A stretch of 62,169 bases of DNA, the filler included, from Kipferlia bialata (lineage: Eukaryota): assembly GCA_003568945.1 (NCBI GenBank). It is 6 parts of 5 records of this genome, joined end to end, with 100 filler letters (N's around TTAATTAATTAA, not from the genome) between each part and the next. Parts side by side here need not be neighbours in the genome. Positions count along the whole stretch, not along the records: positions 1 to 14,557 come from BDIP01000802.1; 5 more parts are not named here. One strand, written 5' to 3'. Below, piece by piece: positions 221 through 42,273 of this stretch (position 1 is the first letter of the stretch; every line of letters begins with the position of its first letter). Under the pieces are notes generated by a model. That model worked only from the letters and a program-made list of their open reading frames with translations, made no database searches and was not told the DNA's origin. A program made the translations under genes and the position numbers.

Positions 221-951
221 GCCTCTCTGGATCTCCGTGCTACCCCTCCCCCTCTCTTTCTATTTACCTCCCCCTGTGTTTGCTCCCTCTCTCTGCTCTC
301 TCTCTCTTGCTCTCTCTTTGCACCCCTCCTTGAATCCCATATCATCGTTATCCCATTACATGCTCCAATTCTTGTTGTATTGTTATATTACATTGTCATG
401 TTGATCTCTCTCTGGTGTTCTTCTTTCTGTATCACTCTCTCTCTCTCTCTATATATATATATATTTATATACTTGAGTATTTACCCCTAGGCATCACCGG
501 TGACTCCAAGTGGTTGATGACATAGACACACACACTCTCTCTCTCTATATATAAATATATATGTGTAGTTTTATATGTCTATTAACTCCTAGGCATGGCT
601 GGTGACTCCAAGTGGTTGATGACTGTGCTCACCACGTCCCAAGGATGGGGGTACGTGTATAAGCATATAGACTCATTTATATATGTATATGTATACACAC
701 ACACATATATATGTATTGGTGATGATACGTGTGTGTACATATGTATATACATAAAGTTGATGACTGTACTCACCACGTCTTCAGGATGGGTGTAAGTATG
801 TGTGCTATAATGAGTGTCAAACGAATGTGTGATGATTTTCAGAATGCATGCAGATACAGTCGTGGATTCTTAAATAAATACCAATTTCTAATGTGTGAAT
901 ACATAACATGCCACTGTAACCCCCTAGCGAGGTCACCTCCATCATAGTCAA

Positions 952-998
<47 letters not shown>

Positions 999-3900
999 CG
1001 ATCTATATATATGTCTTTCTCTCCCTTACCCTAGCGAGGTCACCTCCATCATAGTCAACCACCGTTCCACTCCTGAGTCTGAGTATGTGTACCACAGCAC
1101 CATAGAGGTATCGTACAGTACATATATATACATATATACACTAATATAGTATAGAGATATATACATGTAGTGCCACCCCTGAGTCTGAGTATGTGTACCA
1201 CAGCACTATAGAGGTATGTATATATATATATACAGTATATGGTATACATTATAATGTGATTAGTAGTTACATTAGTATTACTACAATAATGTACATATAG
1301 TGCCCCTGACTCTGAGTATGTGTACCACAGCACTCTAGAGGTATGCATGAATATATATATATGTATATATATATATATAATTACACACAATTCATATATA
1401 TATTAGAGGTATATATATAGTGCCCTCCCTGACTCTGAGTATGTGTACCACAACACCATATAGGTATTTTCACACACTTAGATATATACAGCACTATCGA
1501 GTTACACATATATATTGCTTGTATAATTATGTGAATCTGTATAGATATGTCTCCCCCCACCTCTCTCTCTCTATATATATGTATATATAAATACACTCCT
1601 CTGACCCTCAGGAGCCATCCAACTACGATGGCGGTGACAACGCATGGGCTGATCGGAGGTATATATTGGTGGTTGGGAGTATATACCTGCACACATACAT
1701 ATTTGTATATATAGTATATGTGTTATTGTAAGGATTCTCATCGTGTTCTATTGTATCTAACCCCAGCAAGTACCTTTCCCTCTATGGTAACACCCAACGC
1801 TTAAGTGATATAAGTATTGACTTTTGTATTGCTTTCAATCTCTACATATACATATATATATTGGGTATACCCATTTATGTAGTTCTAACCATAGCAAGTA
1901 CCTCTCCCTCTATGGTAACACCCTGGTAGTGGGTAGCAAGTACTCACACTACGACAATCCCGGTAACCTGGGGTCGGTGAGTGATATGTATCTCTCTCTC
2001 TCTGTGAAATACAGTAGTATCCTAAGCATTAGTTCAGACGAGTATGTGAACATACAATGTTGTGTATTCTAACCCAGGGCTCTGCCTACATCTACCAGTA
2101 CACCGATGCCTCTGATGCATGGACACTGGTGGCAGAGATCAGAAACAGAGACTGTGCGTAGACACTTGTACTATACTAGTATAGTATAATGTCTACTTTT
2201 ATATTGTTGTCCTCCGACCCTCCACCTGACAATACGTCTGGTGTTGTTCATCTACTATTATATTATTCCTATACAATAGTATTCTGTTTGTTTCAGTATT
2301 CAACTATGCGTGTCCGTATATCCACATACAGTACATTTATAAGGATCTTCTCACCCCCTAGCCGACAACACCTTTGGCGTTGTCCTGGCCCTGACAGAGA
2401 CACACATCCTAGTGGGTATGGATGTACATATATGAATATGTATGTGTGTGTCTATATAGTGATTCATTAGTGTAAAGTGTATGTTCTTATATACGTGTAT
2501 TGTGTATATGTATATATGTAACGGTACTGGCCCTGACAGAGACACACATCCTAGTGGGGATGGATAAGAATTTGTATATGCATATTGTATATGTCATTGG
2601 AATATCATCAGAATTCTTCATCACAAAGAAGTGTGGTTGCAGATCAGGTGTACTCATGTGCTAGATACTGTGCTACCCACCAAGCGGCTCCAAGCTCCAT
2701 GCCAACTACTATCACCTTGGCAGAAGAATTTCTTCAATATGCATTACAAATCTATATATGTGAAGATGACGTATTGACCCACCAGGTGGTTCCAAGCTGA
2801 ATGCCAACTACTACGACCTGGGCAGGGTCACTCTGTACGACTGCTCTGCGGCACTAGAGGGCTCTCTCTCTCTCTCTGCTTCCCTCTCTACATGCAAGTC
2901 TGTCCTTGATGTCGTCTCTCCCTGTGACGGGACTGCTGGCTCATGCAAGTTTGGAGAGTACAAGATGTCTAGAGACCAGGTACACTATATACATATATAT
3001 ATATATATATCTGTGTGTGTATATACATGCATGTATGTCGCTGGGACATGCAAGTTCGGGGAGTACAAGATGTCTAGAGACCAGGTACACTATGTATATA
3101 TATGTATATATACACATAGATGTGTGTATACATGCATATATGTAGCTGGGTCATGCAAGTTCGGGGAGTACAAGATGTCTAGGGACCAGGTAGAGTATTT
3201 ATCTATCTATCTATATGTATGTGTGTGTGTATACATGCATATATGTAGCTCGGTCATGCAAGTTCGGGGAGTACAAGATGTCTAGGGATCAGGTACAGTG
3301 TCTTGACATTGATATGTGAGTATATCTATATACACGTATGTATATATGTATATGTCTATATACTAACCCTTAGGACGCCTCTCCCTATTCACATGAATAT
3401 TTATACTAAACATGCGCATATATACACTATGTACATATTGCTAACTATTAGGACCCCTCTGCTCGTGTCACCGTGGTCACAACCCTTGATACCATACAAA
3501 ATATACATACTATTATATAGTATGTCATATCTAATCACAGGACCCCTCGGCTCCTGTAACCATGGTTACTACCCTAGATATGGGCATACACACATCAATG
3601 CCAATCAGTGCAGTGGCAGGTATATATGCATATATGGTATATATAATAGATGTACAATTTGTGCACATATTAGTATACACACATCCATGCCTATCAGTGC
3701 AGTGGCAGGTATGGACATGTAAATGTACATATTTAGTATGTATATATATAGTTATTGGTATCCACACATCAATGCCAATCAGTGCGGTGGCAGGTATATG
3801 CATACACAATTGTATAGATACTGAATGTATATTTGTACTGTTGTCTACCATCACTGACGATCAATGCGGTAGTAGGTATCTATATTTCTCTCTCCATTTG

Positions 3901-6900
3901 TCTCTCGTGGATTGATATCATTGTCTGTCTGTCTCTCTCCCCCTATATATATATATATATACATACATGTAAGTGTACTAACCCTCAGTCTCCTTTGACC
4001 TTGATGCCCTCACCTACTCCATGACCACCTCTTTCTCTCTCTCTCTCTCTATCCCTCTCTCTCTATATATATCTCACCCCAAGTATCTTTCCATCTGGAT
4101 GCCCTGACCTACCCTCCACTCTCTCTCTCTCTCTCCCTCTTAACCTCAGTATCTTTCGATCTGGATGCCCTCACCTACTCCATGACCACCCTGACACCCA
4201 CCATGGGGGATGACCTGGAGATTGGTATGAGAGTACATAGTACTATAGATAGTTGTATACGTGACCTGGAGATAGGTAAACATGTTGGGTGTAGCTCGGT
4301 CTCTCACCAGACCCTCTCTCTATCTCCCTCTTTGTCACTCTCTACTTATATCAAATAGTCACTCTAGGTGCTCTCTCCCTGACCAGTGGTGTCCTGGCTG
4401 TGTCTATCCAGGACAGCAACGCTCTTTCTCTCTCTCTTCCCCTATATGTATGTATGTATATATATATATACTTGTGCTCACTTTAGGTGCACTATCTCTC
4501 ACCAGTGGTGTCCTTGCTGTGTCTCTCCAGGACAGCAACGATGGCTGGAGCAGCCCATCCTACAATGTAAGTATATTCTTTTGTTGGCCAAACAAACACG
4601 AGTCAGAGAAAGATAGAGTATACTGTCTCTGTCTTATTCTATCTTTGGAAGAATCCATCCTACAGTATCAGTATTTGTGTTTCTCTCCCCGTTTTTCCTT
4701 CTCATCATGTCTTCTCAATCTCTGTTCTCTGTTCTCACCCTCCAGACCAGTGAGCAGTTGTACACCTTTGAGTGTGATACGCCTTCTCTCTCTTTCTCTC
4801 TCCATCTATATATGTATGTATATGTAGATATCTCGCCCCTCCAGACAAGTGTTCAGCTGTTCACCCTTGAGCGTGACTCATATTCTCTCTCTTTCTCTCT
4901 ATATTTGTATTAATATGTATTAATTACTATCTCACTCCCTAGAGTAGTGTACAACTCTACTCCCTTGAGCATGACACCCCAACAAACACAGACAAGTGGA
5001 CTCTTAAGGCAGAAGCTGATAAGTGAGTGTATAGTATGTTAATATATGTATATATCAATGTAAATTTCCAGTGAGCAGGCTATTCATGTACATCAATATA
5101 TATATATGTGTGTATATGTTCATTGTATACTGTACAGACACCCTCATTCTCTGATATCTGAGACACAGTGATATATGCACCGTTACCTATATCACAGTAC
5201 CTGATTTATTGTCTTGTATTCTCACCCTATGTGTTTATACATCATATGTGTTACTGTATATATATACCATATGTATACTGACTTTCAGCGACATATGCTT
5301 CGACTCCCCCGTCCCCTACTGTGGCACAGACTTCAGTGCATATATATATATGTATACATATTATATATTAATATACATGTATTCTAACATACAGTGACAT
5401 CTGCATATCCTCCCCCGTCCCCTACTGCGGCACAGACTTTGGTGCATATGTCACCCTCTCCCCACCCTCACCTGACGGCACTCTCTCTGTTGCAGTGCGT
5501 ACTGACCACTGCACACCATCAGAGCTAGTCATAGACAGCTCTACCGTTAAGGATACGGGTTGCGTCGTCTTTATGGACATCGTGCAACTTGAGACGTCTG
5601 GAGCGTCTGGAGCGTCTGATGCGTCTGATTGGGAGTTTGTTGTAACCGGTGCAGTGAGGGCTATGACTGGGTGAGGTCTGGCTGAGGAGTATGATGATAC
5701 ACCCATACAGTACACTGACACAGACACAGTGGCAGTGGGTAACAAGCATGACCAAATACACTACAGGTTAGTATATATTTGTATATATATATACTATTAT
5801 AAGGAATTTATTCCTTGGAGTATCTGGACTAATCCCAGTGCCTATACCATCAGCCCCTCCTCCACTGCACCTGAGGTACCCACCTCTGTGGCAGTGACAC
5901 CCACAGCCATAGTCCTAGGTATGTATACTATAGTATGTATCTATATGTGATTGAATATTCAATCTGATATATATTGTATTTACTCACAAGTGTGACAGTC
6001 ACACCCACGGCCTTAGTGCTAGGTAGGAGATTACATACAGAGCATATGCAATAGGGCATGTATATAAATACAGGTGTGTTGTCCCTACCATTGTGGTAGT
6101 GACACCCACCGCCATTGTATTGGGTATGTATACACTCTTCAGTCTGTCAACTAATATGTTTAGACGCTGTCTCTATCATATATATCATCAGTAGCCTGGT
6201 GTCATTAATACGAATTGTTACCTGATGTCTAGATGAGCTGATATGTATCTGGTATTCTATTTACTTATGTTTACTATATTTGAATTGTGTTTTTAGACAT
6301 ATGTCAGTTACCTCTAACCGCAGGCCAGCTGATGATCGATGACCTCAGCATCTCCTTCCCCAGGGAGGACGGTACAAAGATATATAGTAAGGTATACTAG
6401 TTATACATTGAACACTTTTATATGCATATATATATAGGTGGGCGAAGCATCTCCTTCCCCAGGGAGGACGGCACAAAGACATACAGCAAGGTGTGTATGG
6501 TATATATCAATACATCAATTAGGGATAATTGTAAAGTGTACAGTTAAGTATACACGCATATATAGCATCTCCTTCCCAAGGGACGATGGCACAAAGATAT
6601 ACAGCAAGGTGTNNNNNNNNNNNNNNNNNNNNNNNNNNNNNNNNNNNNNNNNNNNNNNNNNNNNNNNNNNNNNNNNNNNNNNNNNNNNNNNNNNNNNNNN
6701 NNNNNNNNNNNNTATATTTCTTTTTACCTTAGGACTCAGTAGTACTTGTGTCCATGGGTGACCAGACATTCCTGGCCACCCCTGATGCCACCCTGTCTGC
6801 ATACACTGTGCCATCCATCATGTTGACACTGGAGACAGTTCGTGATGCATTGACACTAGAGATAGAGTACTATGTACCTACAGGTATATACTATCTATAT

Positions 6901-8754
6901 TATATATACTGTATATACTCTGTCTGCATATAGTGTGCCATCCATCATGTTGACACTGGAGACAGTGTCAGAGGACTTGACTTTAGACATTGAGTACTAT
7001 GCACCCTCAGGTATATACTATGTATACTGCATTTACCATATATACATACATACATACATATGTATATATGTATGTATGTATACACTGCGCCCTCCATCAT
7101 AGACCTACACCTGGACCTATAGTACTACGCTAGTTTTAGTACATGAATACATATCTATCTATCCATATATTGATTAATGTGATGAGTATGTAGGCCATAG
7201 GTGCAGTTGGACATATGATGCTGTGAAGATGTCTCTCCACACTCTACATCTTTACGGTTTCATTGTATATATGAACTTAAGATACTCTACCATACTACTC
7301 CTCTCATCTTACTTTAGGTGTCAGTAACCTGGTCAATGCCTGTCCCACCTTCCAGCAGAGTGTACCCATGCCTGTCAGTGGGGGGACACCCAGTGCTATT
7401 AGTGTAGACCCCATATTCCTTGGGTATGTATATGTATAGTATGTATAGTATGTATAGTATGTATGGGTGAGTCCAACTACACTGTCCATTCCTAGCACAC
7501 GTATATATGTGTATATACGTGTGTATATATGTATACCATACGTATATATGTAACAGACGTGCATGTGTATATACGTATATATATATGTATATGTGTATAT
7601 ATGTACATACTCACCCCAGGTGGGAAGAGGACGGAGAGGTCAACGACTTCACTGTACAGCTGACCAACCAGTACGGGGCACTGATAGCAGATGGGAGGTA
7701 TATATGTTATTTTACATATGTATATAATAACAAAACACGCATATTAATGTATATATATAAAGATTGATATCATACTCTCTCTATATGACGCATAGCTATG
7801 TATATTTGATCTGTCTAATGACTTAGGGAAGTGCACCTTGGTACCTCTGAGGACACAGAGACACCCATGGCATACGATGCAGACACTGCTACATATTCCG
7901 TAAGGTATGAGGGGACACACATTTGGAATTATATGCAAATATGTATGTATATACTGAGACCCATGGCATACGATGCAGACACTGCTACCTACTCTATTAG
8001 GTACGAGGGTATATTTGCATGAATATAAATATGTATATATATATGTATATATCTCTCAGGACTCCGAGTCAGTGATGGCATACGATGCAGACACGGCATC
8101 ATACTCGATAAGGTAAGAATTATAATAGAATTGTATACATATGTATATCCATATGCAGTTGTGTACTGAGACAGTGATGACATACGATACAGAGAGAGCT
8201 ACCTATAGTATTAGGTATGATGATTCATTAGATTCATAGATATACAAGTACAATTGTGCCATGGTACCCCCATGAGATACGATGCAGGGACTGCAACGTA
8301 GTATCTTAGGTATGAGGGTATTGTCACAGCTCTATATGAACATGTCTTCGATACACACTAATATGTCACATATGTATTTGTACATGGCCAATCACCTGCA
8401 TATATACGCATTGTGATACAAATCACAGCCTCCTCACTCTGGGAGTGGTGCCTCAATCGACACCCTTTACACACACACACATATATGTATATACATTCAC
8501 GTATATTGTATATGGCACCCCTAGTATACCCTATCTTTATATATCTTACCCCAGCCTCCTCACTGGGAGCGATGCTTCCACCAACACCCTGTACCTGACA
8601 GCATACTACAGTGGGACACACTACACAACGACACAGAGGTACTGCAGTGTATATACCGTAACACTATAGTCAAGACAAAATGCTCAATATTGTTCTCCCC
8701 TGACTCTACTAACTAGTAGCTTATGCTTCAGTGACATAATCATCTTTGCCTCCA

Positions 8755-8791
<37 letters not shown>

Positions 8792-10471
8792 CACCCTTCA
8801 TCTCTCACTCCAGTCTATACTTCAGTGACATGATCACCTTTGCCTCCATCTCCCCATCTTCTGTCCAACTGCACATGCCAACCACATTCCATGTGCAGTT
8901 CACAGACGCTGTAGGTGTGTATATAGTATACATATATACATATATAGTTATATGTTTATGGATATATATGTATATATACCTCCGTCCAACTGCACATGCC
9001 AACCACATTCCATGTACAGTTCACAGACGCTGTAGGTATATAGAAAAGTAAATCCCATATATATACATATGTATATTCTATATACATAACAGGAGATAGT
9101 GAGAGAGATATGCCAACCACATTCCACGTGCAGTTCACAGACGCAGTAGGTATGTATAATGTATATATATACACACACATATATATATATAGATATATAC
9201 ANNNNNNNNNNNNNNNNNNNNNNNNNNNNNNNCATATATATATATAGATATATACATGCCAACCACATTCCACGTGCAGTTCACAGATGCAGTAGGTATA
9301 TAATATAGTTATATATATATATATATATATATATGCCAACAACATTCCACGTGCAGTTCACAGACGCAGTAGGTATGTATGGATATGTCACATATACATG
9401 TTGAGGGAGAGAGAGGTAGATAGCGAGAGAGAGATACCAACCACATTCCACGTGCAGTTCACAGATGCAGTAGGTATATACCATATGCAGACTCATTTTT
9501 AGTATGTATATGCAATTACACATACGGAATTCAAAATTCTACCCTATTCAGAATTATTTTGTATTTATACCAACATAGACATAACTATTTACCTGTCAGC
9601 CACATCGTTAACTGACACATTGAAAACACAATTGTTGTGGGATATAGTATTACTATCGATAACTGCTTAATGTAGAGTATTTCTGTTACTGATTGAATAT
9701 GCATATGTATTTCACTTTCTTTTCACTTTCTTAGGCAACCAATTCGTATATATACATACCTTAAACTTGTATCAGACCTGTGCAGTAGTGTTCCGTCTGT
9801 CTCACTCCCAGGCAACCTTGTGGGAGGTGTTGAGAAGGGATTCGGAACAACCATCGGGTAAGTTCTATAGTGTTGTTATCCATTACATTGTGTGTATTTA
9901 GAGTAATTGCAGACACTGTTCGTGGGACACCAGATGACACCATCCATATTGCATTGTCAGATAGTATATGATCTGAGTCTCCATGTATGCTCTCACTCTG
10001 TATATGCGTGAGTGTCTCGCCCTATCTCTCTATGTATGTCTTACCCCCAAGCCGTTATTCAATTCTCTCTCTCTATATATATATACTTCTATCCATATAT
10101 TTCAGTCATATCTCGATCTTTTCCCCTAGGCGGATCACCACATATGATACCCATCGTCCCTCTTTCTCTCTCTCTCAATGTATGAATATATCTAAGTATA
10201 TATATGAATGTCTAACCCCTCAGCTGGAGCACCACTGACGACACCCAGCGTACACCTCTTGTCTGGGACCTAGAGACACTGTCCTACGTGGGAGTGCTGG
10301 TGCCAGACCACGACTCAGGTAGCACGATATATATATATATATATATACGTATACACATACATATATATGTATGGGTATATATATGTGTATAATAATGCTG
10401 CTGTAGCTTGTGTTCTCTGTCCTACGTGGGAGTGCTGGTGCCAGGCCACAACTCAGGTATAGTGGTAAACA

Positions 10472-10507
<36 letters not shown>

Positions 10508-11384
10508 CGAGTATATCAATATATATATATCATGTTACAGTATGTTTACACTGACATAATGGGGAGTGCTGGTACCAGACCACGACTCAGGTACTATTTC
10601 ACTTCTGTCCCTCTATGATTATATGTATACAATGGTACACTTGAAGTGTTTGTAGTACACCGCTCTGTATCTCTACAACCCTGACGTACCACACTAATTG
10701 GGTGTGTAGGTTCTCTATCCATCTGTATACATAGTATTGCTTACTGTATATGGATAGAATAGCTAACCATCAGACTCTGACACCGATCTGGACTACCAGG
10801 ACTGGATAAATATGTATATATGTAGTCATATATCCATATCAATCGTATCTACGTATGTGCATGAGTATATCTATTTCTCTAACCCCTTAGACTCTGACAC
10901 TGATCTGGACTACCAGGACTGGGTGTATGTGGAGGTGGACGGGCCATTTGGATCCATCCAGTACCAACAGGTGAATGGTAGACAGTGATATATATGAATG
11001 GGATGCCCACACACATATGTATGGTTATATATGTGTGTGTGTATGTGGAAGTGGACGGGCCATTTGGGTCTATTCAATACCAGCAGGTTAGTACTTACAT
11101 ACACACATACTTACCATCTTAATGTGATTATGGTGTACCTGTACTGATGCATATATATACATGTGTATACATTACACACATGGATGTAGGAGACTGGTGG
11201 AACTATACATATGCATGAATATATCCATATACTTATCCCAGGTCCCCAGCATTCATGGTATACATGGTATCTCTATCTTCCACATATACATATATATGCC
11301 TACTCACCCCAGGTCCATGTGCATGAGCCACTGGAAGGAGTCACAGTGTATATAGTACTGTATATATTCATATTCATATAGTAT

Positions 11385-11431
<47 letters not shown>

Positions 11432-12963
11432 GTAACCCCAGGTCCATGTGCATGAGCCACTGGAAGGAGTCAGCACATTGCTACCAGGTAACCATACTGT
11501 CCATGTATATAGATATGGAATTGTGTCATCCAATCACGTATATATCATCATACGTCTTACCTCCCAGATGGAGCAGACCACTACAACTAGACCTAGGCCT
11601 CTCTCTCTCTCTGTCTCTCTCTCTCTATATATATATATATACATATTAATACATATTTACTCATTATCCAACATCCCAGATGGAGCCGACCCCACTGCAA
11701 CTAGTATTTATGCCTTTACCTTCATGTATACAATCTTATGTATCTCCATAAATATATCTCCATAAATATATCTCTCAACCTCCAGATGGGGCAGACCCCA
11801 CAGCAACTGGCCCTGTCGCTGCATGGGATGACCTTCTATTCGTACTTGATCCAGCCAACGCCATTGTCAGAGTCTATCGCGTAGATATCGACATTGATAC
11901 TTCAAACACAGATGGGGGTGATGATATTACCTACACCCTCCTGGTTGAGGAGACTCTGTGGTACAGCAGTGCTGCATACAACGAGTATGACACCTTTGAA
12001 ATGGTGTATGACGATGCATCAGGGTACGCATAGCACATACATGCACATATATACACACATATATACTTATCTATGTCTGTACTACTATGTACCACACACA
12101 TATGTGTCTATATACAAAAGATGATTTGAGTATGACACCTTTGACATGGTGTATGACCATGCATCAGGGTGTGTTTGTAAAACTACATATAATGTAAATG
12201 GAATGCACTACATAGTGGATATACCATATGCTACATGCAATATATAGGTCTGTATACAACGAGTATGACACGTTTGACATAGTGTATGACCATGCATCAG
12301 GGCACGTTAGTATGGTTACTCTATGTATGTATGTACATATATATATAGATTCTGGATATTATATATGCTCACCTTCACGACCGTCCATTACACTATATAT
12401 TCTTGTCATTAGGTAATAGTCTTACCCGGATACGTTGCTATCAGTACCCAGGACTATTACATTGATTGTATACTCTATTCACATATACATATATATATAT
12501 ATGTACTTGTACTGATCCACAGATACCTTGCCATCCTGTATATACTCTATTCAATTATCTATATATATGTATGCATGTATCAATATCTCTCTATTGACTG
12601 ATCCCCATATCTATATATATGTATCAATATCTGTGTATTGACTGATACTCATATCTATATATACGTATCGATATCTGTGTATTGACCGATACTCATATAT
12701 ATATATATATATATCAATATCTGTATATTGACTGATACCCAGATACCTTGCCATCCTGTCCCAAGACATTGGGAACCTGATGATACTGAGGGTGGATGAT
12801 GTAGAAGGTACTAGTAGTATGTGTATACATTCACATATTCTATATATACCAGTTTGATAACCAGATACTATATCAATATATATATGTATATATACAAACT
12901 TATGATTCTGAGGGTGGATGACGTGGCAGGTACAAGTAGTATATATATATCTGCGTATGATCT

Positions 12964-13005
<42 letters not shown>

Positions 13006-14290
13006 ATACATAATATTGAAATGTCTACTACTTACCCTCAGGCTCCCTGACCCATTGAGTATCTGGACCAGCCTTAGTTCTTCTGTATACTTGTTGATAT
13101 GTATATATATTCATACATACATTCTCATGTCTAGGCACCCTGACCCCCATTGGGTCTCTTGTCCAGACAGACACACACATTTACACTCTCTTCCATATAC
13201 TTACTATGCTTATATATATATACTTGTAATCCTTCCTTATCTTTGGCACCCTGACCCCCATTGGGTTCCTGCGCTAGACCATGTATATATATATATATAT
13301 GTATATATATGTATATATGCTTAACGATTAGGAACCCTGACCCCCATTGGGTCTCTTGTGCAGACAGACGGCACAGAGGAAATAGCAGCAATGGCAATGG
13401 CTGAAGGTATGATATTGTGTGATGTGGATATATACTTAGTATATCTGGCTCCCTGTGTCTGACTGTGACACCGCTTTCAGTCATTCTCTTTCTCCCGATG
13501 TCCCACTCTATATGAAGTATTCTAAGTGTAGACACCCTCTTCCTGACCTGTGACTCTGGTGTCAGTCTCTCTCTCTCTCTCTCTTACTCCCTCTCTCTCT
13601 ATGTATATAACCCATGTTCTTACTCCAGGCACCCTCTTTCTGACCTGTGACTCCGGTGTCAGTCTCTTTCTCTCTCTCTCTCTTACTCTATATCTTCCTC
13701 TCTCTCTGTTATTACCTTTCTTACTCCAGGCACCCTCTTCCTGACCTGTGACTCCGGTGTACGTGTGTTCACAACATCCAATGGACAGGTACATATGCAC
13801 ATAGAAGAGTAGTGTATTTAAGTAGTAGTGTATCTATCTGGTTACATATGTCAATATTGATGTGATCTCACCACATCCACTGGAGTACAGTGTAATGACT
13901 ATAAATGTGTATATTGGTATATCAATATGTATGTTTACAAACACATATATTCATTGCTAATGACCCAGTGGACAGAGGAGGAACCCATCTTCATCCAGTT
14001 TGGGAGCAAGCTGGATGAGAGTCGCCTGGCCTTTGACGGAGTCACAATGGCTGTATCTGTGACATACACAGATGAGGTATATACATACGTATATATACAT
14101 GAGATGGCATTTCTATTCATGTATATATGTAGTGGGTATCCGTAGATGTTATTATGTGATATGTAAACATCAGTTGTATTATCATTGTAGAGTAACAGAG
14201 GTAATGGATACCCTGTCAATGTGATCCTTACCACAGGTGCTCCTGTACAGAAGAGACGTCTACACAGGACTCTGGGCCATGGTGCAGAAG
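1..14290 (+). CDS. Large multi-exon FG-GAP-type beta-propeller plus Ig-like repeat surface/secreted protein; partial at both ends
   Basis: Phase-compatible GT-AG exons stitch to SKYLSLYGNTLVVGSKYSHYDNPGNLGS|GSAYIYQY, DNTFGVVLALTETHILVGGSKLNANYYDLGRVTLYD and YCGTDFGAYVTLS (FG-GAP pattern FG..VAL....LVVG...G.AYIY). Ig-like segments follow (NDFTVQLTNQYG, PTTFHVQFTDAV), then a second propeller-like region (GPVAAWDDLLFVLD, RLAFDGVTMAVSV, VLLYRRDVYTGLWAMVQK). One in-frame TGA at 5672 is unresolved. Confidence 0.75.
921..1470 (+). repeat. Exon-echo array around exon 1035-1107 (1 acceptor echo, 3 donor echoes)
   Basis: cctgaStctgagtatgtgtaccac...ag|gtat repeated with TA-rich spacers. Confidence 0.9.
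8860..9480 (+). repeat. Exon-echo array: 5 donor echoes of MPTTFHVQFTDAV|gt, spanning a scaffold gap
   Basis: ccaaccacattccaygtgcagttcacagaygcwgtag|gt repeated at about 8980, 9110, 9255, 9335 and 9435. Confidence 0.9.
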
Positions 14291-28376: not shown

Positions 28377-28921
28377 TTAGTGTATATTGAGATGCCTATA
28401 AAACACTGTCTCAATTGAATGCGTAGTGTTTGAGGGCATGGGCATAATTTACGAGGCAGAATAGACACATTGAGGGGTCTGATATTCACTCTCAATTGAA
28501 TAGTGCTTTTAGTAACTGCTACTAGTGGTATTCGAGTGCGTGGCATGGGCATAGTCTACTGGGCAGATTAGACAAATTATGCCGATCCATTCATTTTACC
28601 GGTATTGACTCCAAAAACACTGCACCCTTATGAAGAATTAAGCACAAGTTTCGTAAGACTACCGCACGTACATCATTTACTTGGATATGGTGCTCTTACA
28701 GGGTCATATTGTGTACTCTACCTCCTTGGGCATGTGGTGGAAGATTGAGAAGAGAGTGGTGGAAGATTGAGAAGAGAGTCCTAATAATTCTAGATTCACT
28801 TTGACACCGTTTGATTCCATCATTCTAAGTGCTCACATCGGTGCAGAATCGACGCATCTCTCTTTGCAGTATCATCTAGCTGCCTCCCCCCCCCTCTCTC
28901 TCTCTCTTACGGTTCCCTAGG

Positions 28922-29212: not shown

Positions 29213-29312
29213 NNNNNNNNNNNNNNNNNNNNNNNNNNNNNNNNNNNNNNNNNNNNTTAATTAATTAANNNNNNNNNNNNNNNNNNNNNNNNNNNNNNNN
29301 NNNNNNNNNNNN
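29213..29312. other. Artificial contig linker
   Basis: N44-TTAATTAATTAA-N44. Confidence 0.98.
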
Positions 29313-31040: not shown

Positions 31041-32234
31041 TCACTGAACTGCAAGAATTCTGGAGTTTGGAGAGGTTTGAGGAGGGGAGCGGGATATAGT
31101 GGGGGTTGGGTGGGGGGGGGGGGTTGCAAACCACACCTGTCAATCAGTTCAAGGGACAAACCGATGTGACTGACCGTCCATGAGTTCATTTGGGTGTATC
31201 AGAGACTACTGTATACAGGTAGAGGGAATGAGAGCGAATGTGGAGGGGGGGGGGGGGCAGAAGTGATTCTGCTGTTGTACTTGTAATCCACCTTCAAGAC
31301 CGAAGAAACACGTGAATGCTCTCTCAATCACCTATGGGTCTTGTTTGGTCTCAGTTGTCCCGAACACCTTGGGGATAAGAGGGAGAAACGTGACGGTAGG
31401 GAGAAAAGGAGGGGAGGAAGGGATAGAAGGCAAGGTGTGTATAAATGAGAGAGAGAGAGACCTGTTCCTCCAATTAGTCTGGTAGTGTATTAGATACTAT
31501 CATACAGAGTCCTACGCAATATCTATTTATATATATATACTATATGTGTATATAGATGTCACACACATATAGAATCCACAGTGAGAGATAGATCTAGGTG
31601 AGAGAGACCTAATCTGCCTGTATATATGTAGACATTTACACCGAGATTAGAATGATTCTAATAGAATGGGAACACAGGCCCGGGGGGGGGGGGTAATATC
31701 AGTATCAATGCTGGGGGGGGGAAGGTGAGTGAGTGTGTGACACTCCAACGGATAGTAAGAGTGTCTGACTCAGACGGTCTGAGTAAGAGAGAGGCAATAT
31801 GTACATCCATACCAAAGTCTTCCCCCCCCAGTATTTACATATGCAAAAGTGATTTCTAGCGTGCATTCACTGGTTGAACATGTATCTCACCTCAACCTGT
31901 GGGAACGTGGAGAGAGGGTTCCGCTTGCTATTCAAAAGCAGTTCTGGTAACTCTTCAAGAATCACACGAAGGGTGTAGTTGTTTTTGATTGTCAAAACTA
32001 CACCGATACACCCACTCTTCCAGCTAGATCAACAATGCCTGAATACATACATAGATACTCATACTATTTCTTACACTGACACACAGGCACATCATGTCTG
32101 TGTCCACAGTGACACTGCTGTGCATTATTCTCTACATGCGACACTCTATGTGCCGTTAAATATACTGAAGATTTTCACTTACACAAGGCATATCATGTCT
32201 CTGTCCACAGTGACACTGATATGTACTACTCTAT

Positions 32235-33320: not shown

Positions 33321-33705
33321 CTATAGGTGGTTGCGAGCAAGGGCCCCAAAGTACACCTGAGGGTCAGAAACAGTAATACTACATATACTAATATATAATA
33401 ATAGTATATAACATATGGGAAACTAAAAGAAATCTTGGGAAACACCCCTATGAGAGAGACAGTATTCTCACATACTCTACAGGATGGTTACATTGACGTT
33501 ACGGGCGAGAGAGGTCAGGTACATCTGGAGAGGTAGAGACACAATGAGGGTTCAGCGAGAGAGAGGAAGGCAGAAAGAGAGAGAGAGAGAGAGAGAGTGA
33601 GAGAGAGAGTGAGAGAGGGATACCTTGACGCTCTGAAGGTTCTCAGACAAGGCATTGCGAGAGGCATCCTCGATGTCGACACCTGGGAGGTAAGTAGACA
33701 CACAT

Positions 33706-33737
<32 letters not shown>

Positions 33738-36700
33738 CTAGAGTTGCCACATTAGTGAATATACCCACCAAGCTCCACGTTGCACTGTATGCATACATAC
33801 ACAAAATAACCGTCATACACAAATATATACCCACCTAGCTCTACGTTGCGCAGTGCCTGTTCGACCAGTCTACTCACAGCAACCTCCTGGCCTCCTGACA
33901 TTAAGGGTGCAGAGGGGTAAAATGGTAGGAACCACGAGTTCACTCATATGAAAGAGAGGTATAATAGGGTCATCATACCCCACGTACCGAGTGTCTGGAC
34001 GTGCTCTCCTACATATATAAATATTATTGTACATATACAGATATATATTTATATAGAGAGAGAGAGAGAGAGAGAGAGAATGAGGTATATACGGTCATCA
34101 TACCCCACGTACCGAGTGTCTGGACGTGCTCTCCTATGTAGACACCGAGGGTCTGGGAGTGAGGGGGGGTGGAGAGAAAGAATAACGGGAGAGAGAGAGA
34201 CTTGGTGAGGAGGCAAGAGACGGAAGACAAAGCACAAGAGAATTATGTGTATATAAGAACCCCATATATATATAGAGTCGCATATACACACCTCCTTGGG
34301 GGTGTCTAGCCCTGTGAGCTGGAGTATACACAAATGCAAAGATACATATACATAATATATATAAATGTATATATATATATATCTGTACATACCTCCTTGG
34401 GGGTGTCTAGCACTGTGAGCTGGAGTATACACATATACAAATATATATATATACATAATAATATATTATTATAAATATATATATATATACCTCCTTGGGG
34501 GTGTCCAGCACTGTGAGCTGGAGTATACACACACACATATATATGCAAAGATATATATACATACTAATATACATATATATATATATAAATATGTCTGTAC
34601 ATACCTCCTTGGGGGTGTCTAGCACTGTGAGCTAGAGTATACACACATATATATATGCAAAGAGATATATACATATATACATAATAATAATATATATATA
34701 TAAATAACACTATATATATATATACATATATATATACCTCCTTGGGGGTGTCCAGCACTGTGAGCTAAAGTAGCTGGAGTATACACAAATGCAAAGATAT
34801 ATACACATAATAATATATATATATATATATATGTCTGTACACACCTCCTTGGGGGTGTCTAGCACTGTGAGCTGGAGTATACGCATATGTACAATAATGC
34901 ATATGTATATATATATATATACATATATATATACCTCCTTGGGGGTGTCTAGCACTGTGAGCAGTGGCAGGACAGGGATGGCCATGGTCCAGGAGAACTT
35001 GTCAGCCAGCAGGATGCTGGGGGTGAGGGTGATAGATTTACAACACAATTACATATAATCAATGTAATCATAAGGGTGATAGGTTATTATAATACAGTTT
35101 CATATAAACATAATCATATTCTATATATAAGGCAATTAACAAAGCATGATGCTGAGGGTGAGGTGTATACATAGAAATTCTCATGAATAGTAGCTATGTC
35201 CTACTACTACAGAGAAGTATCATATACCTGTAGTATCAGTGGTATGAATGTATCCACACACTACAATATATTTAAACCTGTTCGGCAATGTATAGTCACA
35301 TACAAACATATATTAACATGTAAATATAATATACATGGACTTCCACCACTTACCTATCCAGCAGGGTCTTCAGACACTCAGGCAGCCGTGGCTTCAACAG
35401 AGTGTCCAGTCGCCTAAGGGTAAGCATGAACGTCACTATGAAAAGTCTCTAAAAGAAAAGAATAGAACTGAATCGATCAAAATCATCGAATGACAAATTC
35501 TTTACCTGGCACAGGTGACATCGCTTGCATCGAAGTAGGATGGAATGTCACTGGTGGTGGAGAGCCTGACACCTGGGGATTAGACACACACAGACATATA
35601 TATATATGTGTGTATATGTATATATGGGACAAAAAATGAGACACTTTGACAACATATATATATATATATGTATATGGAATGTCACTGGTGGTGGAGAGCC
35701 TGACACCTGGGTATCAGAGAGAGATATAGAAAGAGAGAGAGAGAGAAGTTAGCTCAAATACACACGACCATATAAGTCCAATATATACAATTATATTCAA
35801 GAGAGATACCCTATATATATATACATACAAATATATACAGTACCTGCCACATATGTGAGACATGCATTCAGGGCACCGACTGCCTTGTCTCTGACACTGG
35901 GCTGGAGGTGGCCGATGAGACCAAGGGTCTGGGGTGAGTTATGACAAGTATATAGGAAACAAATACAATGGTCTCAATATATACATAGAGTGAGAGCGAG
36001 CGAGAGATAAGACAAAAGGACAGAGACGAGGAAATACCTGTGAGAATAGGGCCAGCAGCAGTTCATCGCTGAGTGCATTGGTGTATGAGGGCAGGGTCTT
36101 GTACATGCACATGACCTGGGAATGAGGGATAAAGGGACAAACATGAGTATACATACAGATTCATGCACATGTGTATAAATATATGTATGTGTAATACGAG
36201 TATGTAATGTATCGACATGACCTGGGAATGAGGACGAAGAGGAAGTTCAGGTCAAGACGTTACAATCATATAAACATATATAAATCCACAACCCATACAT
36301 ATTACATATATTATTCTAACTCACCACATCACTGCCTGTCATAGCGAGCTTAGACACAGTGGACAGCTCATCGACTGGGGGGTTAGAAAGGTGGTAGAGA
36401 GAGAGAGAGAGAGAGAGAGATATGCCATAGGTAGATTCAGGGTCGGAGAGGGACATTTGTGGTACAAAACTCATTAATACATAATGATTATAATATATGT
36501 ACATATACAATATCAATAATATATTGGTGGTACCTGACACCGCAGCATAGGCCGTGAGCACAGCAGCCAGACAGTCCTGAAGGGTGAGAGACACAATTAA
36601 GGAATACACATGTTTCATTAGTAACAGCATAGTGTTAATGGTATTATTAATTATGCGAGAATGTGGATACCTGTAGGCACGTGTCTCCAAACAGCTCAAA

Positions 36701-38116
36701 CACACACACGTCCACCACGGTGTTTGACATGATGGAGTGCAGGGCCTTAAGCATGACTGGGAGTGAGAGAGAGTTATATATACTAATATACCTATATATA
36801 TACATGTAAACCAATTAAAGAATACTGATAGATTTATGCATATACATAATTATATGGTGTTTGACATGATGGAGTGCAGGGCCTTGAGCATGACTACGGT
36901 TAGAGTGATTTACATATATATTAATACTAACCATAAAGACTCAAATGTTGACAAACCCATATATAGAAATTAACCCATATATACATTTCGCCATGATGGA
37001 GTGCAGGGCCTTGAGCATGACTGAGGTTTAGAAATATATATATATATATATGTATATAGAAGAATCTTACACTAAAGGATTATATGCGTATATACACATA
37101 TGATTATGGAGTGCAGGGCCTTGAGCATGACTGGGAGTGAGAGTTATATATATATATACAAGACATACATAACAATATAAGTATATATATACGTATAGAT
37201 AGACTGGGAGTTAGTCACACAGAGTAACCGTATATATATATAGAGAGAGAGAGAGAGAAAGAGAGAGACTTCAACAACCACACCTGTCAATGGCTTGAGT
37301 ACTGTCTTGTATGGCTCCTGGTTCTTGGTCAGCTGGGTCTGGGCCTAAAGGGTAAGGTACAGATAAATCAATACACAACAATGAATACTTGGATGGCCAA
37401 ATATTCATGTGTATGAAAACAATATTGGCAATACCTGCAGCATAGGAATCACCCCTGTGAATATCCGTGTCACGTGCTGTGTCAGCTGGATAGTGACAGT
37501 GTCACGGCCAGAGGAGGGGGACCTCAGACGGACATTGCTGGTGTTATTCATACAATACTCTTCTATATTAACGTATATATATATACACAATTAGAGTGTC
37601 ACGGCCAGAGGAGGGGGACCTAAGGCGAACATTGTTGGGGTTAGATGTGTACATATGCAAATAATATACATAGAGAAAGAGAGACCTAAGATGAACACTG
37701 CTGGTGTTAGGAATGGTATATTAATAATAATAATAGAGTAATATGAATATATAATTAGGAGGTACTACCAGAACAAAATACACATACTATAACTATTACT
37801 ATGTCTGTGCATGCCTCGAGTATGAGTCTGAGCAAGAGAAACCCAACTACATTTGGTATATGTAGGTATATATATATATAAATGTGTGTGTGTATGTGTG
37901 TGCAACATACCTGTCTGTGCATGCCTCGAGTATGAGTCTGAGCAAGGGTACCACCAGGGGGAATGGTAGAGAGGCAAGGAGGGTGGGGTCGGCCAGGCGC
38001 TGGAGGTGAGTACTAATAGAAAGGAAACAGAGACAGAGGTGTGTGAGAGAGAGACAGAGAGAGAGAGAATGGCAAGAAGGGTGGGGTCGGCCAGGCGCTG
38101 GAGGTCAGAAGAGAGG

Positions 38117-38155
<39 letters not shown>

Positions 38156-41100
38156 ATGGCAAGGAGGGTGGTCAGCCAGAAACTGCTATACATAATAATA
38201 ATATTACCAAGATGTTGCAAATGAATATGGAAGAGAGCATACACACACATACATAGACAGAGAGTTCTGGATGGGGATTGGGACCAGAGAGACTCTGGGG
38301 ATCAGAATACAGAAGGACACTAGAAAACCAACACTTCAGATATCTAAACACACTTCACCGTAATCAGAATATGAAAAAGTCTTGTTTTCATGTACTGCAC
38401 TACAATGTACCTTGAGAATTGGCAGGAGTTCCCTAACAATCTCACAACTATAGAACTGTTCAGTACAGCAAGAACAACATGTAACTGTGTAAAACTAAAC
38501 TACAATTCTTCAAATATACCTTGAGAATTGGCAGGAGTTCCCTGACAATCTGGTCCTTGAACACAGACCGGGCCTGGACACCCCTCATGAGGCCCCTGGG
38601 GTTAGAACGCAATAAAGAATGAATATATATATAGAATATATATAAATATTGAATCTCACCTGGCAGCTCTGAGGCTGAATAACAGCTCTGAAGCTTAGTG
38701 TATATATACTTCCAATGAATATAACATGACGTTCTTCATAATTATACCTTGCCGCTCTGAGGCTGATTAACAACTCATTGGGAGGCACTGTCTGGCCCTG
38801 ACTGAAGGAGACAAGGGGGACGAGGGAGGGGTGGAACAATAACCTAAGAGGTTAGAGAGAGAGAGAGATATATGGATTGAAGACCAGGGGGACAAGGGAG
38901 GGGTGGAACAATAACCTAAGAGGTTAGAGAGAGAGAGAGAGATATGGATTGAAGACCAGGGGAACAAGGGAGGGGTGGAACAATAACCTGAGGGGTTAGG
39001 TATGGATATATATACATATATATATATCTATATGTATATATATACTGAAGGAGACATATACTGAAGGGGGGCTAGGGGTAGAAGAGGATCCTAAGAGAGG
39101 GAGAGGGAGATGGATACCTGTGGAACAGCTTGTGTGTCACTGGCTTTCCCATCAACAGACCGATGGGAGTCAGGGCATCCTGGAGGTCCTGAAAATCAGA
39201 ACCAATATAGCTTATTTATGTGTATATGTATATGTATGTGTATATGTATATGTATATGTATGTGTATATGTATACCTTTCCGGCTGCCAGGATGACTGGG
39301 AGGGGACACACTACAAAAGCGGTAATATATATAAACATATATGCATCACTGAATACCTTTCCGGCTGCCAGGATGACTGGGAGGGGACTGTTGGCTGGGG
39401 GTCTGCACAGGGTGAGGGGGTTGCGGTGGATGAGAAGGCCTGGGGTGAGGGTATATATATTAATATATATATACTACTATATATATGTATATAGTGGTAG
39501 TGTGTATAGCAGGGTGAGGGGGTTGCGGTGGATGAGGAGGCCTGGGGTGAGTATATATATATTAATATATATGTATATATATATGTATATATATATAGTT
39601 GTAGTGTGTAAAGCAGGGTGAGGGGGTTGCGGTGGATGAGGAGGCCTGGGGGTGGGGGTATACTATATACATTATATATATATATATATAATATAAACAC
39701 TATTATATATATTGATTCATTGGGGTGGATGAGGAGGCCTGGGGGTGGGGGAAGAATTCCATAATTATATAATACATATATTATATATATTTTATATCTA
39801 TATTATATTGTGAAGAGTAAATATATATATGTATTAATGTGTATAGGGTTGCGGTGGATGAGGAGGCCTGGGGTTGGGGTATCTTATACATAGAGTTAGT
39901 AGCATTCATAGATACATATGTGGGAGAGGGGATAAGAGGTGACACTCACCTAGCGATGGCAGTCTCTCGAGGGTGGAGGTCTTGACAACGTCCTGGGAGG
40001 TCAGAGAGAGGCGAAAATATGGAAGAAACATCTCCAAATACGAAGGAATGTGTTCTGAACGATGTCTTGACAGATTACCCAAGGGGTATGTCTATCCGTA
40101 CCTTTCCGAAGCTCTGCAGCACATTGTGTCCAAAACAGCAATGTAGATTGACTTAATAAGGATACAAGATGATGGCATCCTAATACAGAGTTGTATATAT
40201 GGCACAAAACAATAGTGCTGATACCCTTACCTTTCCGAAGCTCTGCAGCACGTTGTGGACAGTCTTCAACAGCCATGGGAACCTGGGGTACTTGGTCAGA
40301 ACACGGGTGATCCTGGAGGGTCAGGGATGTCGATACTACCTATACACATGAATTAGAAAATATACATACATATATAATAAAATATAATTATTCTTAAAAT
40401 ATAATTATTATATAATAAAATATACAAACATATATATAACTAATAATAATATTAATTAATTACTTGGTCAGAACATGGGTGATCCATAGGGGGTGAGAAT
40501 GACACATTCAGAGTCTCTCTACCTGCATATACGAAGGCATACATACACACTATATTGACAATAATCATACACCGGGGGCCAAGAGAGCGTTAGCACGAAA
40601 TCATACATACACACATAAAAATACCCAATTAATACACCTTGCCAGCAGGGCGTAGAGGACCTCATCTGTACTATACATATACGCACACGTATATATATAT
40701 ATATATATATATTTCCTATATACACACCTTGCCAGCAGTGCATCGAGGACCTCGTCTGTGGTAGGCTCTCCTGCTGAGAGAGAGACAGGCACAGGGGCAG
40801 TGGAGCCTGGTATAAGAAATATATCAATACATATATGTCCATATACAGAGAGAGGCACAGGGGCACTGTTCTGTTACAGGGTCATATATATGAGTGTACC
40901 AATATAGAAACACAAATATACGGATAGAGAGAGAGAGAGACATACAAAAATACAGTGGAGGTTGGCACCAGGCCATACTATGGAAACAAATACTCAGTGC
41001 ATTTACCAACCCCTACCTGATGCCCTCCGCTCTGTCTTTGCAATCACGATATGTCCTGCACATATTCTTATACTTATCCTATACATATTATACTATATAC

Positions 41101-42088
41101 ACGATATTATACTATATACAATATAGCACATATACTACCTGATGCCCTCCGCTCTGTCTTTGCAATCACGCTAGACAGTACACTGGACAGGTGGATGGCA
41201 GACCTGCGCATAAAAGGGTGTGGAGATTAACACTGATCACAGACTGATGAGTATGAATATTAACTGATACCTCTCGAGGAATAGGCCAGCTGGACTGTCG
41301 TATCTGGCAGGCATGGACTGGGAGTGAGGGATGAAGAGAGAGAGAGGGGGGTGAGGGAGAGAGAACTACACTGGCGAATGAGTATACAATGATATACATA
41401 CACGAAGTACCTCGAGTGTCCTCCAGAGGTTGACGACCAGTTCCCGACCTGGGGGGGTGGACATGATGGCCTGGGTATAAGGGATGTAGGAAGAGAGAAC
41501 TAGGGCAGAAGTATTGGTGTATTTGCAGGACCTTAGTGAAGACACATACACAAATCTATCAATGAATGCGTCTACCTGTGTGATCTCTGTGATGACACAG
41601 TATGTGAATATAATACATACAATGAATATGTATATAATACATACAATACATGTACCTGTGTGATCTTAGTGATGAGCAGAGTGGTGGCAGCCAGTCTGGC
41701 AACGGCACGGGTCCTGGGAGTAAGAGGATATATAAATACATTTAGAGGGAGACATAAAGAGAAAGAGAGCGAAACATACTGGTGCATACTGGTACATTTG
41801 TGCATACCTGTCTGGCTCGCTGTCCCCCGAGCATGCCCTCGCCACCAGTGCCTGCAGAGTGGCATTAGCTGGGTCACTGTGGGGTGAGAAAGACAAGGGG
41901 GTGAAGGGGATATGAAACATACTGAGACCGATTGGGTGTGTGATATATATAGTTATGCTTATAGAGATATAGAGAAATGAAAGAGATAACGCACGTTGCA
42001 TCCCCGACATGGAGGCAGAATGCATGGAGGTCCAGAAGGAGAGACATGTCAGGGGACTGGGCACAGAGCTCATCGACACCTGAGGGAT

Positions 42089-42122
<34 letters not shown>

Positions 42123-42234
42123 CATGTCAGGAGACTGGGCAAAGAGCTCATCGACACCTGAGATAAGAGAGAGAGAGAGAGAGAGAGAGACATGTCAGGG
42201 GACTGGGCACATAGCTCATCGACACCTAAGGGAT

Positions 42235-42273
<39 letters not shown>

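What the first reader, a model, noticed from the sequence alone, without database searches (positions are those of the whole stretch)
10765..11092. Unspliceable echo with six substitutions, all synonymous
Exon 10891-10970 ends TAT GTG GAG GTG GAC GGG CCA TTT GGA TCC ATC CAG TAC CAA CAG|gt. The echo 11042-11086 reads TAT GTG GAA GTG GAC GGG CCA TTT GGG TCT ATT CAA TAC CAG CAG|gt. That is six differences, all third-position silent (YVEVDGPFGSIQYQQ in both), yet the echo is preceded by (TG)n with no acceptor. Neutral decay of an intronic duplicate should not respect codon position. Either this sequence diverged while coding (captured allele or paralog) or it is still used somehow.
Basis: seen in the sequence. 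Interest (0 to 1): 0.88.

Follow-up and report, generated by a model that had tools for sequence, protein, structure and literature searches.

The report
Introns stacked with old exon-edge copies
In this single-celled eukaryote most introns hold short dead copies of the neighbouring exon's edge that differ from the working exon mainly at silent positions, likely because DNA repair copied from a divergent version of the same gene, which would make the introns a record of past alleles.

Summary
It is one case of a window-wide pattern. In four gene models, 137 copies of exon edges (median 36 nt, repeat period about 106 bp) lie in 64 of 100 introns: 5' edge plus acceptor upstream, 3' edge plus donor downstream. 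The right null is pN/pS 0.5, not 1, because the live exon drifts silently. Observed 0.22-0.34 rejects it (p=4e-12), and echoes differ from each other with the same bias. The intron flank of single echoes is no closer to the exon's own flank than unrelated flanks are, yet often keeps a branch-point motif. Lost GT/AG and a few stops show decay. Best reading (0.5): one-ended repair on a divergent allele or homeolog, closed by microhomology joining, then array expansion. Rivals: ongoing conversion or indirect selection (0.25), assembly artefact (0.1). One held-out gene showed little bias. Reads could not be tested. A matching protein is named Kipferlia bialata. This scan noted similar echoes in sea urchin genes, where the silent bias was reported weaker.

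The parts
10891..10970 (+). Working 80-nt exon (phase 2; SDTDLDYQDWVYVEVDGPFGSIQYQQ), exon 23 of 30 in gene model g1
   Evidence: peptide present in database protein P0001
10971..11035 (+). Intron filler between working donor and echo, ending in (TG)n that resembles the exon sequence at the junction (possible microhomology, inferred)
11036..11088 (+). Downstream echo: last 45-51 nt of the exon plus GT, six silent differences in 11042-11086, no acceptor; its intron flank is unrelated to the exon's own (score -3.5, null mean 12)
10762..10805 (+). Upstream echo: CTAAC branch-like motif, AG and first 32 nt of the exon (10774-10805), 1 silent difference, no good donor
593..14290 (+). Gene g1, 30 exons modelled, 53 echoes, pN/pS 0.22; protein named 'hypothetical protein KIPB_003950, partial [Kipferlia bialata]' by the source; no Pfam family at cut-off
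17545..28376 (+). Gene g3, 32 exons modelled, complete open frame, weak WD40 hit (E 0.03, below cut-off), 39 echoes, pN/pS 0.29
33477..43782 (-). Gene g5, 33 exons modelled, open frame, 38 echoes, pN/pS 0.29
44194..46531 (-). Gene g6, DnaJ-like (PF00226 E 2.6e-5 on one exon, below cut-off), 9 exons modelled, 7 echoes, pN/pS 0.48
14709..16774 (-). Gene g2, first exon not resolved, 10 echoes, held out; the 9 scored give 9 silent / 17 replacement differences
8981..9475 (+). Array of five downstream echoes of exon 8814-8914; the outer four share two silent differences from the exon that the nearest lacks
3040..3294 (+). Array of three junction-sharing echoes of exon 2786-2979, all differing from the exon at the same three silent sites; the outermost has a different intron flank
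34290..34872 (-). Array of six near-identical downstream echoes of exon 35016-34935 with an alternating variant; four have an acceptor-like site that would give 27-nt in-frame units

Best explanation
The echoes are dead, decaying copies of exon edges with their splice site, likely left behind when a break inside an exon was repaired by copying about 100 bases from a divergent allele or homeolog of the same gene and the ends were then joined without full homology. Steps: (1) shown: each unit is an exon edge, one splice site and intron filler, about 106 bp, always in tandem on the matching side of its exon. (2) Inferred: one broken end invades the other gene copy where only exons are alike, copies out into that copy's intron, cannot re-anneal because the introns are unalignable, and is joined to the other end at a short microhomology. 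One version of the edge stays in the exon, the other becomes the echo; which is old is not shown. (3) Inferred: only events that copy a single splice site survive, since the outermost donor and acceptor are still chosen. (4) Shown in part: existing units are then multiplied, giving junction-sharing arrays; inferred to be by unequal exchange, which keeps bringing in coding-filtered edges. (5) Shown: echoes decay afterwards. The silent bias is thus mostly divergence gained while both versions were coding, about 0.16-0.19 per silent site above the replacement level.
For: Pooled mismatch rate 6.2%, 5.8%, 20.3% at codon positions 1, 2, 3 over 137 echoes; 308 silent / 237 replacement; pN/pS 0.25-0.34 for kappa 1-8, bootstrap over 86 exon ends 0.23-0.39 at kappa 4. 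Nearest echo per exon end only: 191 / 129, silent share 0.60 against 0.41 for a same-copy snapshot, p=4e-12; 59 ends above and 16 below pS=2pN, of 86. Changes unique to an echo while a farther echo has the exon's base: 26 / 26, ratio 0.31-0.35, p 3e-5 to 1.4e-4. Flank of 55 single echoes scores like unrelated flanks (11.9 vs 10.9, p=0.22; 5 of 55 above the null's 95th percentile) at 89% edge identity; 51 inner echoes have related flanks (26.4); simulated same-copy flanks with 10% decay are recognised in 98-100%. 16 of 42 single or outermost upstream echoes carry a CTNAC branch motif (background 4.4%), 7 of them where the exon's own acceptor lacks it. Junction-sharing families differ from the exon at 17 silent / 1 replacement fixed sites. 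pS minus pN stays 0.16-0.19 from single to outermost echoes while pN doubles (Fisher p=0.036). Replacement differences run GC to AT (104 vs 59), silent ones are balanced (112 vs 119). At least 15 nt of exon always remain uncopied. K. bialata is listed with polymerase theta, Rad52 and Spo11 and without Ku70, and fornicates are reported to lack Rad51A and hold two Dmc1 paralogs (PMC8516963). Failed strand re-annealing closed by polymerase theta gives tandem duplications in C. elegans (PMC8654963). Crossovers in a hypervariable fungus favour exons (PMC4209137 abstract).
Against: No donor copy was found: one protein only for exon 11788-12021 among 136 candidates of 138-2000 aa, none among 93 shorter candidates, nothing in metagenome contigs, no genome held. 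Ploidy, sex and diversity of the species are not known from my searches. Differences within 16 junction-sharing families are still silent-biased, 30 / 19, which capture at birth alone does not explain. Inner flanks have diverged about as much as a 28% substitution simulation while inner edges show only about 5% replacement change, so either filler mutates some threefold faster or edges are protected. Allelic introns must be nearly unalignable at silent divergence near 0.25. Held-out gene g2 gave 9 / 17 and g6 0.48. The balance of silent changes is also expected if both copies mutate alike, so one search does not separate this reading from the first rival. Microhomology at junctions was seen by eye, not tested. 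The C. elegans duplications use the sister chromatid and are mostly longer.
Confidence: 0.5

Rival explanations
1. Old same-chromosome duplications whose edges are kept protein-compatible afterwards: gene conversion from live exon alleles refreshes the echo, and echoes with harmful changes are removed because conversion or array collapse sometimes puts them back into the exon.
For: Silent bias persists within junction-sharing families, 30 / 19, and between echoes, 16.3% vs 5.6%. 12 echoes of 20 nt or more are identical to the exon, several with unrelated flanks. Identity drops right after the splice dinucleotide. Replacements are more conservative than random single-base changes (p=7e-4).
Against: Edge conversion does not explain branch motifs kept or gained in otherwise unrelated flanks (16 of 42; 7 where the exon lacks one). 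pS does not scale with pN across ranks. Homogenisation alone lowers silent differences unless the donors are themselves divergent alleles, which merges this with the best reading.
Confidence: 0.25
2. Assembly artefact: pieces of divergent haplotypes or strains strung in tandem by a short-read assembler at microsatellites.
For: Each echo with its flank looks like a piece of a functional divergent copy; the period (median 106) is near a common short-read length and most edges are 55 nt or less; the published K. bialata draft is a short-read SPAdes assembly from a culture purified by gradients (PMC5874029), though whether the window comes from it was not established; pN/pS 0.23 would suit orthologs.
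Against: Functional haplotypes cannot carry lost splice sites: 13 of 133 echoes lack GT/AG, 7 of them clean changes plus one GC and 5 in poorly aligned ends; 2 stops lie over 30 nt from the junction and 3 echoes have net frameshifts. Farther echoes are more diverged (13.2% vs 7.9%, 30 arrays, p=0.003). 16 families share junctions. Order is right in 19 of 19 introns with both kinds. Most junctions are N-free. No second protein copy.
Confidence: 0.1
3. Plain tandem duplication of the junction on the same chromosome, then neutral decay; the silent bias comes only from selection on the live exon (the reading given in this scan's sea-urchin note).
For: It explains polarity, period and decay. g2 (9 / 17) and g6 (0.48) fit it. 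A minority of echoes have near-identical flanks.
Against: Predicts pN/pS of 0.5 or more against the exon and about 1 for echo-specific changes; found 0.23 and 0.31-0.35. Predicts recognisable flanks; single echoes have none.
Confidence: 0.07
4. Echoes are spliced into mRNA as alternative exon ends or micro-exons.
For: 66 of 77 carried donors and 37 of 56 carried acceptors still score like true sites; four 27-nt in-frame units at 34319-34872 and two upstream echoes (18 and 27 nt) have both sites.
Against: Only 2 of 56 upstream echoes have a good donor (null 4.7%) and 6 of 81 downstream ones a good acceptor (null 3.4%, p=0.06) at the inner end; the finding's echo has none. The database protein of g1 follows the echo-free model. 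The terminal exon of g3 also has echoes, after its stop codon.
Confidence: 0.05

Closest known systems
Human F7 intron 7 37-bp VNTR whose first unit spans the exon-intron boundary (PMC1557585, abstract read)
   Same: Tandem copies of an exon-intron junction leave silent downstream donor copies; the most upstream donor is used.
   Different: One locus with near-identical units. Here about two thirds of introns, both donors and acceptors, about 106-bp units, coding-filtered edges and unrelated flanks.
Tandem duplications from aborted synthesis-dependent strand annealing closed by polymerase theta, C. elegans helq-1 and brc-1 (PMC8654963, passages read)
   Same: Head-to-tail duplication of the copied tract; proposed here as the mechanism.
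   Different: There the template is the sister, sizes run from about 100 bp to 10 kb, and the copies are identical at birth. Here copies appear to have been divergent at birth and sizes cluster at 78-143 bp.
Tandem exon duplication and mutually exclusive exons (PMC9013439, abstract read)
   Same: Exon-like copies in introns next to the parent exon.
   Different: Those are whole exons with both splice sites and often expressed. Echoes are partial, with one site.
Intron gain by segmental duplication of an AGGT-containing exon stretch (PMC3265369, search listing only)
   Same: Local duplication that copies splice signals.
   Different: That creates a new intron. Echoes lengthen an existing intron by about 106 bp each and add none.
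Exon-biased crossing-over in hypervariable Schizophyllum commune (PMC4209137, abstract read)
   Same: Recombination between divergent alleles is drawn to exons, where similarity is high.
   Different: Describes reciprocal crossovers in a cross, not retained duplicate edges.

Membership tests
Junction-spanning tandem duplication (F7 IVS7 type) | Direct, adjacent copy that spans one exon-intron boundary | tested here: met
   56 of 56 upstream and 80 of 81 downstream echoes reach the matching exon end; 2 of 1226 hits in non-adjacent introns, 1 of 200 inverted
Junction-spanning tandem duplication (F7 IVS7 type) | Intron part of the unit is a copy of the exon's own flank | tested here: not met
   Not for single echoes (5 of 55 above null 95th percentile) and barely for outermost (4 of 27); met for inner echoes (20 of 51)
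Junction-spanning tandem duplication (F7 IVS7 type) | Copied splice sites stay silent in mRNA | not testable with these tools
   No reads were available; only the predicted protein agrees with the echo-free model
Mutually exclusive tandem exons | Copy has both splice sites and covers the whole exon | tested here: not met
   At least 15 nt always missing; missing site not enriched
Theta-mediated tandem duplication from aborted repair synthesis | Microhomology or templated insertion at the junction | tested here: inconclusive
   Junction contexts listed suggest short TG, CT or TA overlaps; no statistical test, since fillers have diverged
Theta-mediated tandem duplication from aborted repair synthesis | Organism has polymerase theta; duplications depend on it | not testable with these tools
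   Gene listed for K. bialata in the supplement of PMC8516963; dependence untested
Captured divergent allele or homeolog | Coding-type divergence beyond drift of the live exon, also between copies | tested here: met
   not met in g2 and weak in g6
Captured divergent allele or homeolog | A donor copy matching an echo exists elsewhere | tested here: inconclusive
   None in protein or metagenome searches; no genome or reads to search
Intron gain by tandem duplication | A new intron separates the two copies, both in the mRNA | tested here: not met
   Open frames run through the exons without the echoes

The most novel reading that the evidence does not exclude
In Kipferlia bialata about half of the intron sequence of echo-rich genes is a stacked, roughly age-ordered archive of former alleles of the exon edges, laid down by Dmc1-driven repair on divergent homologues in a cell without Ku. 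One genome would then record hidden hyperdiversity (silent divergence near 0.15-0.2) and genetic exchange in a lineage where sex has not been seen, and would show a route of intron growth that runs on allelic divergence.
Probability: 0.35. Interest if true: 0.86.

Novelty: new variant of a known kind. Interest (0 to 1): 0.7.

Why it matters
If real, it is a gene-wide mode of intron growth with a tight unit size, in the one intron-rich fornicate whose intron abundance has been read as ancestral. It gives hundreds of natural tests of splice-site choice, because strong spare donors and acceptors sit about 100 nt from the working ones in a short-intron genome. If the capture reading holds, old alleles and past recombination can be read from a single assembly, and the reduced repair kit of metamonads (no Ku, no Rad51A, polymerase theta present) gets a visible genomic footprint. 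If it is an artefact, gene models and intron statistics of this assembly need revising.

Tried and rejected
Nested insertion of a whole exon cassette into the old exon (suggested because the two echoes of 10891-10970 abut): rejected; upstream and downstream counts are uncorrelated per exon (rho 0.02) and per intron (rho 0.01), and long exons keep short echoes. A paralog elsewhere in the window: the 8 distant self-matches are all microsatellite or simple repeat. Automatic gene finding took echoes for exons and misframed part of g5, so models were curated by hand. Rows dropped before the pooled counts: 10 hits of g2 (frame then unresolved; 9 scored later) and 1 low-complexity hit, of 148. Direction of change as a test between capture and protection: not discriminating, since echo-private silent changes are GC to AT skewed too (29 vs 15). 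No whole genome held. Metagenome scan: 595 pattern matches, none confirmed. A 44-aa exon of the gene at 51.6-56 kb found no candidate. Pfam gave nothing at cut-off for the g1 protein. Earlier notes on this genome or sequence: none. Print: searches showed no description of such echoes in Kipferlia or of allele-captured exon edges; the genome paper has no 'duplicat', 'ploid' or 'heterozyg' in its main text; its supplements were not read and subscription journals are mostly outside the library. Read-level tests (junction support, splicing, second haplotype) remain open.

Full report
Observation. The exon 10891-10970 and the echo 11042-11086 are as described: 6 differences in 45 nt, all at codon position 3, all silent, all transitions. 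The echo keeps GT and has no acceptor. The same exon also has an upstream echo, 10774-10805: branch-like motif, AG and the first 32 nt. A dead copy is compared with a live exon that goes on changing at silent sites, so pN/pS near 0.5 is expected without any puzzle. Under that null 6 of 6 silent has a chance of 0.0025-0.016, weak for one pair chosen from many.

Setting. The window is six pieces joined by N-spacers with a stop-codon linker, plus three inner N gaps. I curated four gene models by coordinates, g1 (30 exons), g3 (32), g5 (33) and g6 (9); all have open frames. One g1 exon matches, at 100%, a single protein that its source names KIPB_003950 of Kipferlia bialata; my model agrees with it at 923 of 928 residues, the finding's peptide included. 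The other three models have no outside check beyond weak Pfam hits.

Anatomy. Aligning each exon to its two flanking introns gave 148 hits. I dropped 10 from g2 and 1 low-complexity hit, leaving 137 at 86 exon ends; 64 of 100 introns hold at least one. The same search gives 2 hits in 1226 exon by non-adjacent-intron pairs and 1 in 200 inverted tests. 56 of 56 upstream echoes reach the exon's 5' end and 80 of 81 downstream echoes its 3' end. Edges are 17-94 nt (median 36), at least 15 nt of exon is always left out, the period has median 106 bp (5-95%: 78-143), and intron length rises 106 bp per echo from about 130-150 bp. In 19 of 19 introns with both kinds, donor-type echoes come first. By that unit size echoes make up roughly 14.5 of 28.7 kb of intron.

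Silent bias. Mismatch rates are 6.2%, 5.8% and 20.3% at codon positions 1, 2 and 3; pN/pS is 0.25-0.34 for kappa 1-8 and the bootstrap over exon ends gives 0.23-0.39 at kappa 4; kappa at fourfold sites is about 1.5 and the strict alignment cores give 0.22. With one echo per exon end the count is 191 silent to 129 replacement, p=4e-12 against the 0.5 null. The bias is not only drift of the exon. Changes unique to one echo while a farther echo has the exon's base number 26 silent to 26 replacement, against about 25% silent expected. Echo-echo mismatch is 16.3% at position 3 and 5.6% at positions 1-2. Against this: g6 gives 0.48 on 7 echoes and the held-out g2 9 silent to 17 replacement on 9 echoes.

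Decay. 13 of 133 echoes lack the GT or AG; 7 are clean changes, several behind an intact branch motif, one is GC, and 5 lie in poorly aligned ends. Of 7 stop codons, 2 are more than 30 nt from the junction, 2 are 6 and 11 nt from it and 3 are within 2 nt and doubtful; 3 of 6 gapped echoes have net frameshifts. Replacement differences run GC to AT. Outermost echoes are more diverged than nearest ones (13.2% vs 7.9%, 30 arrays, p=0.003); pN doubles while pS minus pN stays at 0.16-0.19. This fits a fixed coding-type offset plus later neutral decay of about 5%.

Flanks. For 55 single echoes the intron flank is no closer to the exon's own flank than unrelated flanks are (p=0.22), at 89% edge identity; 27 outermost echoes are barely closer (p=0.05); 51 inner echoes are clearly related. 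A slight likeness remains in the first ten or so intron bases (0.46-0.47 vs 0.33-0.36). Yet 16 of 42 single or outermost upstream echoes carry a CTNAC branch motif (background 4.4%), as often where the exon's own acceptor lacks it (7 of 18) as where it has it (9 of 24). These flanks look like intron ends that evolved as working splice sites in another copy of the gene. In 16 junction-sharing families the fixed differences from the exon are 17 silent to 1 replacement, as expected if one divergent edge was set down and then multiplied. Differences within the families are 30 to 19, still biased, which needs repeated input from coding copies or some protection.

Mechanism. I favour one-ended homologous repair on a divergent allele or homeolog: invasion in the exon, where the copies are alike, synthesis of about 100 nt into a dissimilar intron, and microhomology joining to the other end. 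Selection keeps only events with one splice site. Unequal exchange then multiplies units. The anatomy, bias, flanks and decay are shown; the repair pathway, the donor and the direction of replacement are inferred. The species' listed repair genes fit: polymerase theta, Rad52 and Spo11 present, Ku70 absent (supplement rows), Rad51A lost and two Dmc1 paralogs in fornicates (section read). That Dmc1 tolerates mismatches and favours homologues is recalled, from no call. Precedents: PMC8654963 (passages) and PMC4209137 (abstract). No donor was found, and ploidy and diversity are unknown.

Rivals. Ongoing conversion or indirect selection (0.25) explains the bias within families but not the independent branch motifs; it can act together with capture. 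An assembly artefact (0.1) is suggested by the read-like period and by the short-read method of the published draft (PMC5874029, passages and one section; not shown to be this window's source), but decayed splice sites, shared junctions, order and the distance gradient argue against it; reads are needed. Plain duplication (0.07) fails in g1, g3 and g5. Use in mRNA (0.05) lacks the missing splice sites.

Known and new. Junction-spanning tandem copies are known (F7 IVS7, PMC1557585 abstract), and this scan noted them in sea-urchin genes. I found no report of them in Kipferlia, nor of coding-diverged edges with foreign flanks at this density (searches; PMC6679479 and PMC9860276 passages). Supplements of the genome paper were not read. 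Verdict: real feature with high probability, new variant of a known kind, interest 0.7.

Noticed in passing
window 43967-62169 against 1-43866: Local exon-like repeats fall from 2.7-3.4 per kb in the three AT-richer pieces to 1.45, 0.57 and 0.39 per kb in the three GC-richer pieces; echo load varies strongly between genes or regions.
   Followed up: partly
window 22314-22316 and 22412-22433 (+): In my model the working exon 22278-22314 ends at a GC donor while its identical 20-nt echo carries a GT; a good test of first-donor choice.
   Followed up: no
window 28433-28464 and 28542-28571 (+): The terminal exon of g3 has two echoes that end at the stop codon, in the 3' untranslated region, so a donor is not needed for echoes to form.
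   Followed up: partly
window 34292-34872 (-): Six near-identical echoes with an alternating silent variant; four have an acceptor-like site giving 27-nt in-frame units, possible micro-exons.
   Followed up: partly
window 22762-22779 and 13629-13655 (+): Two upstream echoes have a good donor at the inner end, 18 and 27 nt, both in frame.
   Followed up: no
window 14558-14657, 29213-29312, 43867-43966, 51546-51645, 56876-56975: Spacers of 44 N, a 12-nt all-frame stop linker and 44 N join six separate pieces; neighbouring genes across them are not linked.
   Followed up: yes
window 51650-56000 (+): Many-exon gene whose fragments resemble the splicing factor Prp6 (recalled likeness, not confirmed; one search found no candidate), with few echoes.
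   Followed up: partly
window 58900-60650 (-): Exon fragments with sirtuin-like motifs (recalled, seen).
   Followed up: no
window 32071-32307 and 50986-51227: Three-copy repeats of the echo type outside the modelled genes.
   Followed up: no
window 50746-50792: Not examined for echoes: long low-complexity exons of the gene at 46.9-51 kb (-) seem to lack them, by eye only.
   Followed up: no
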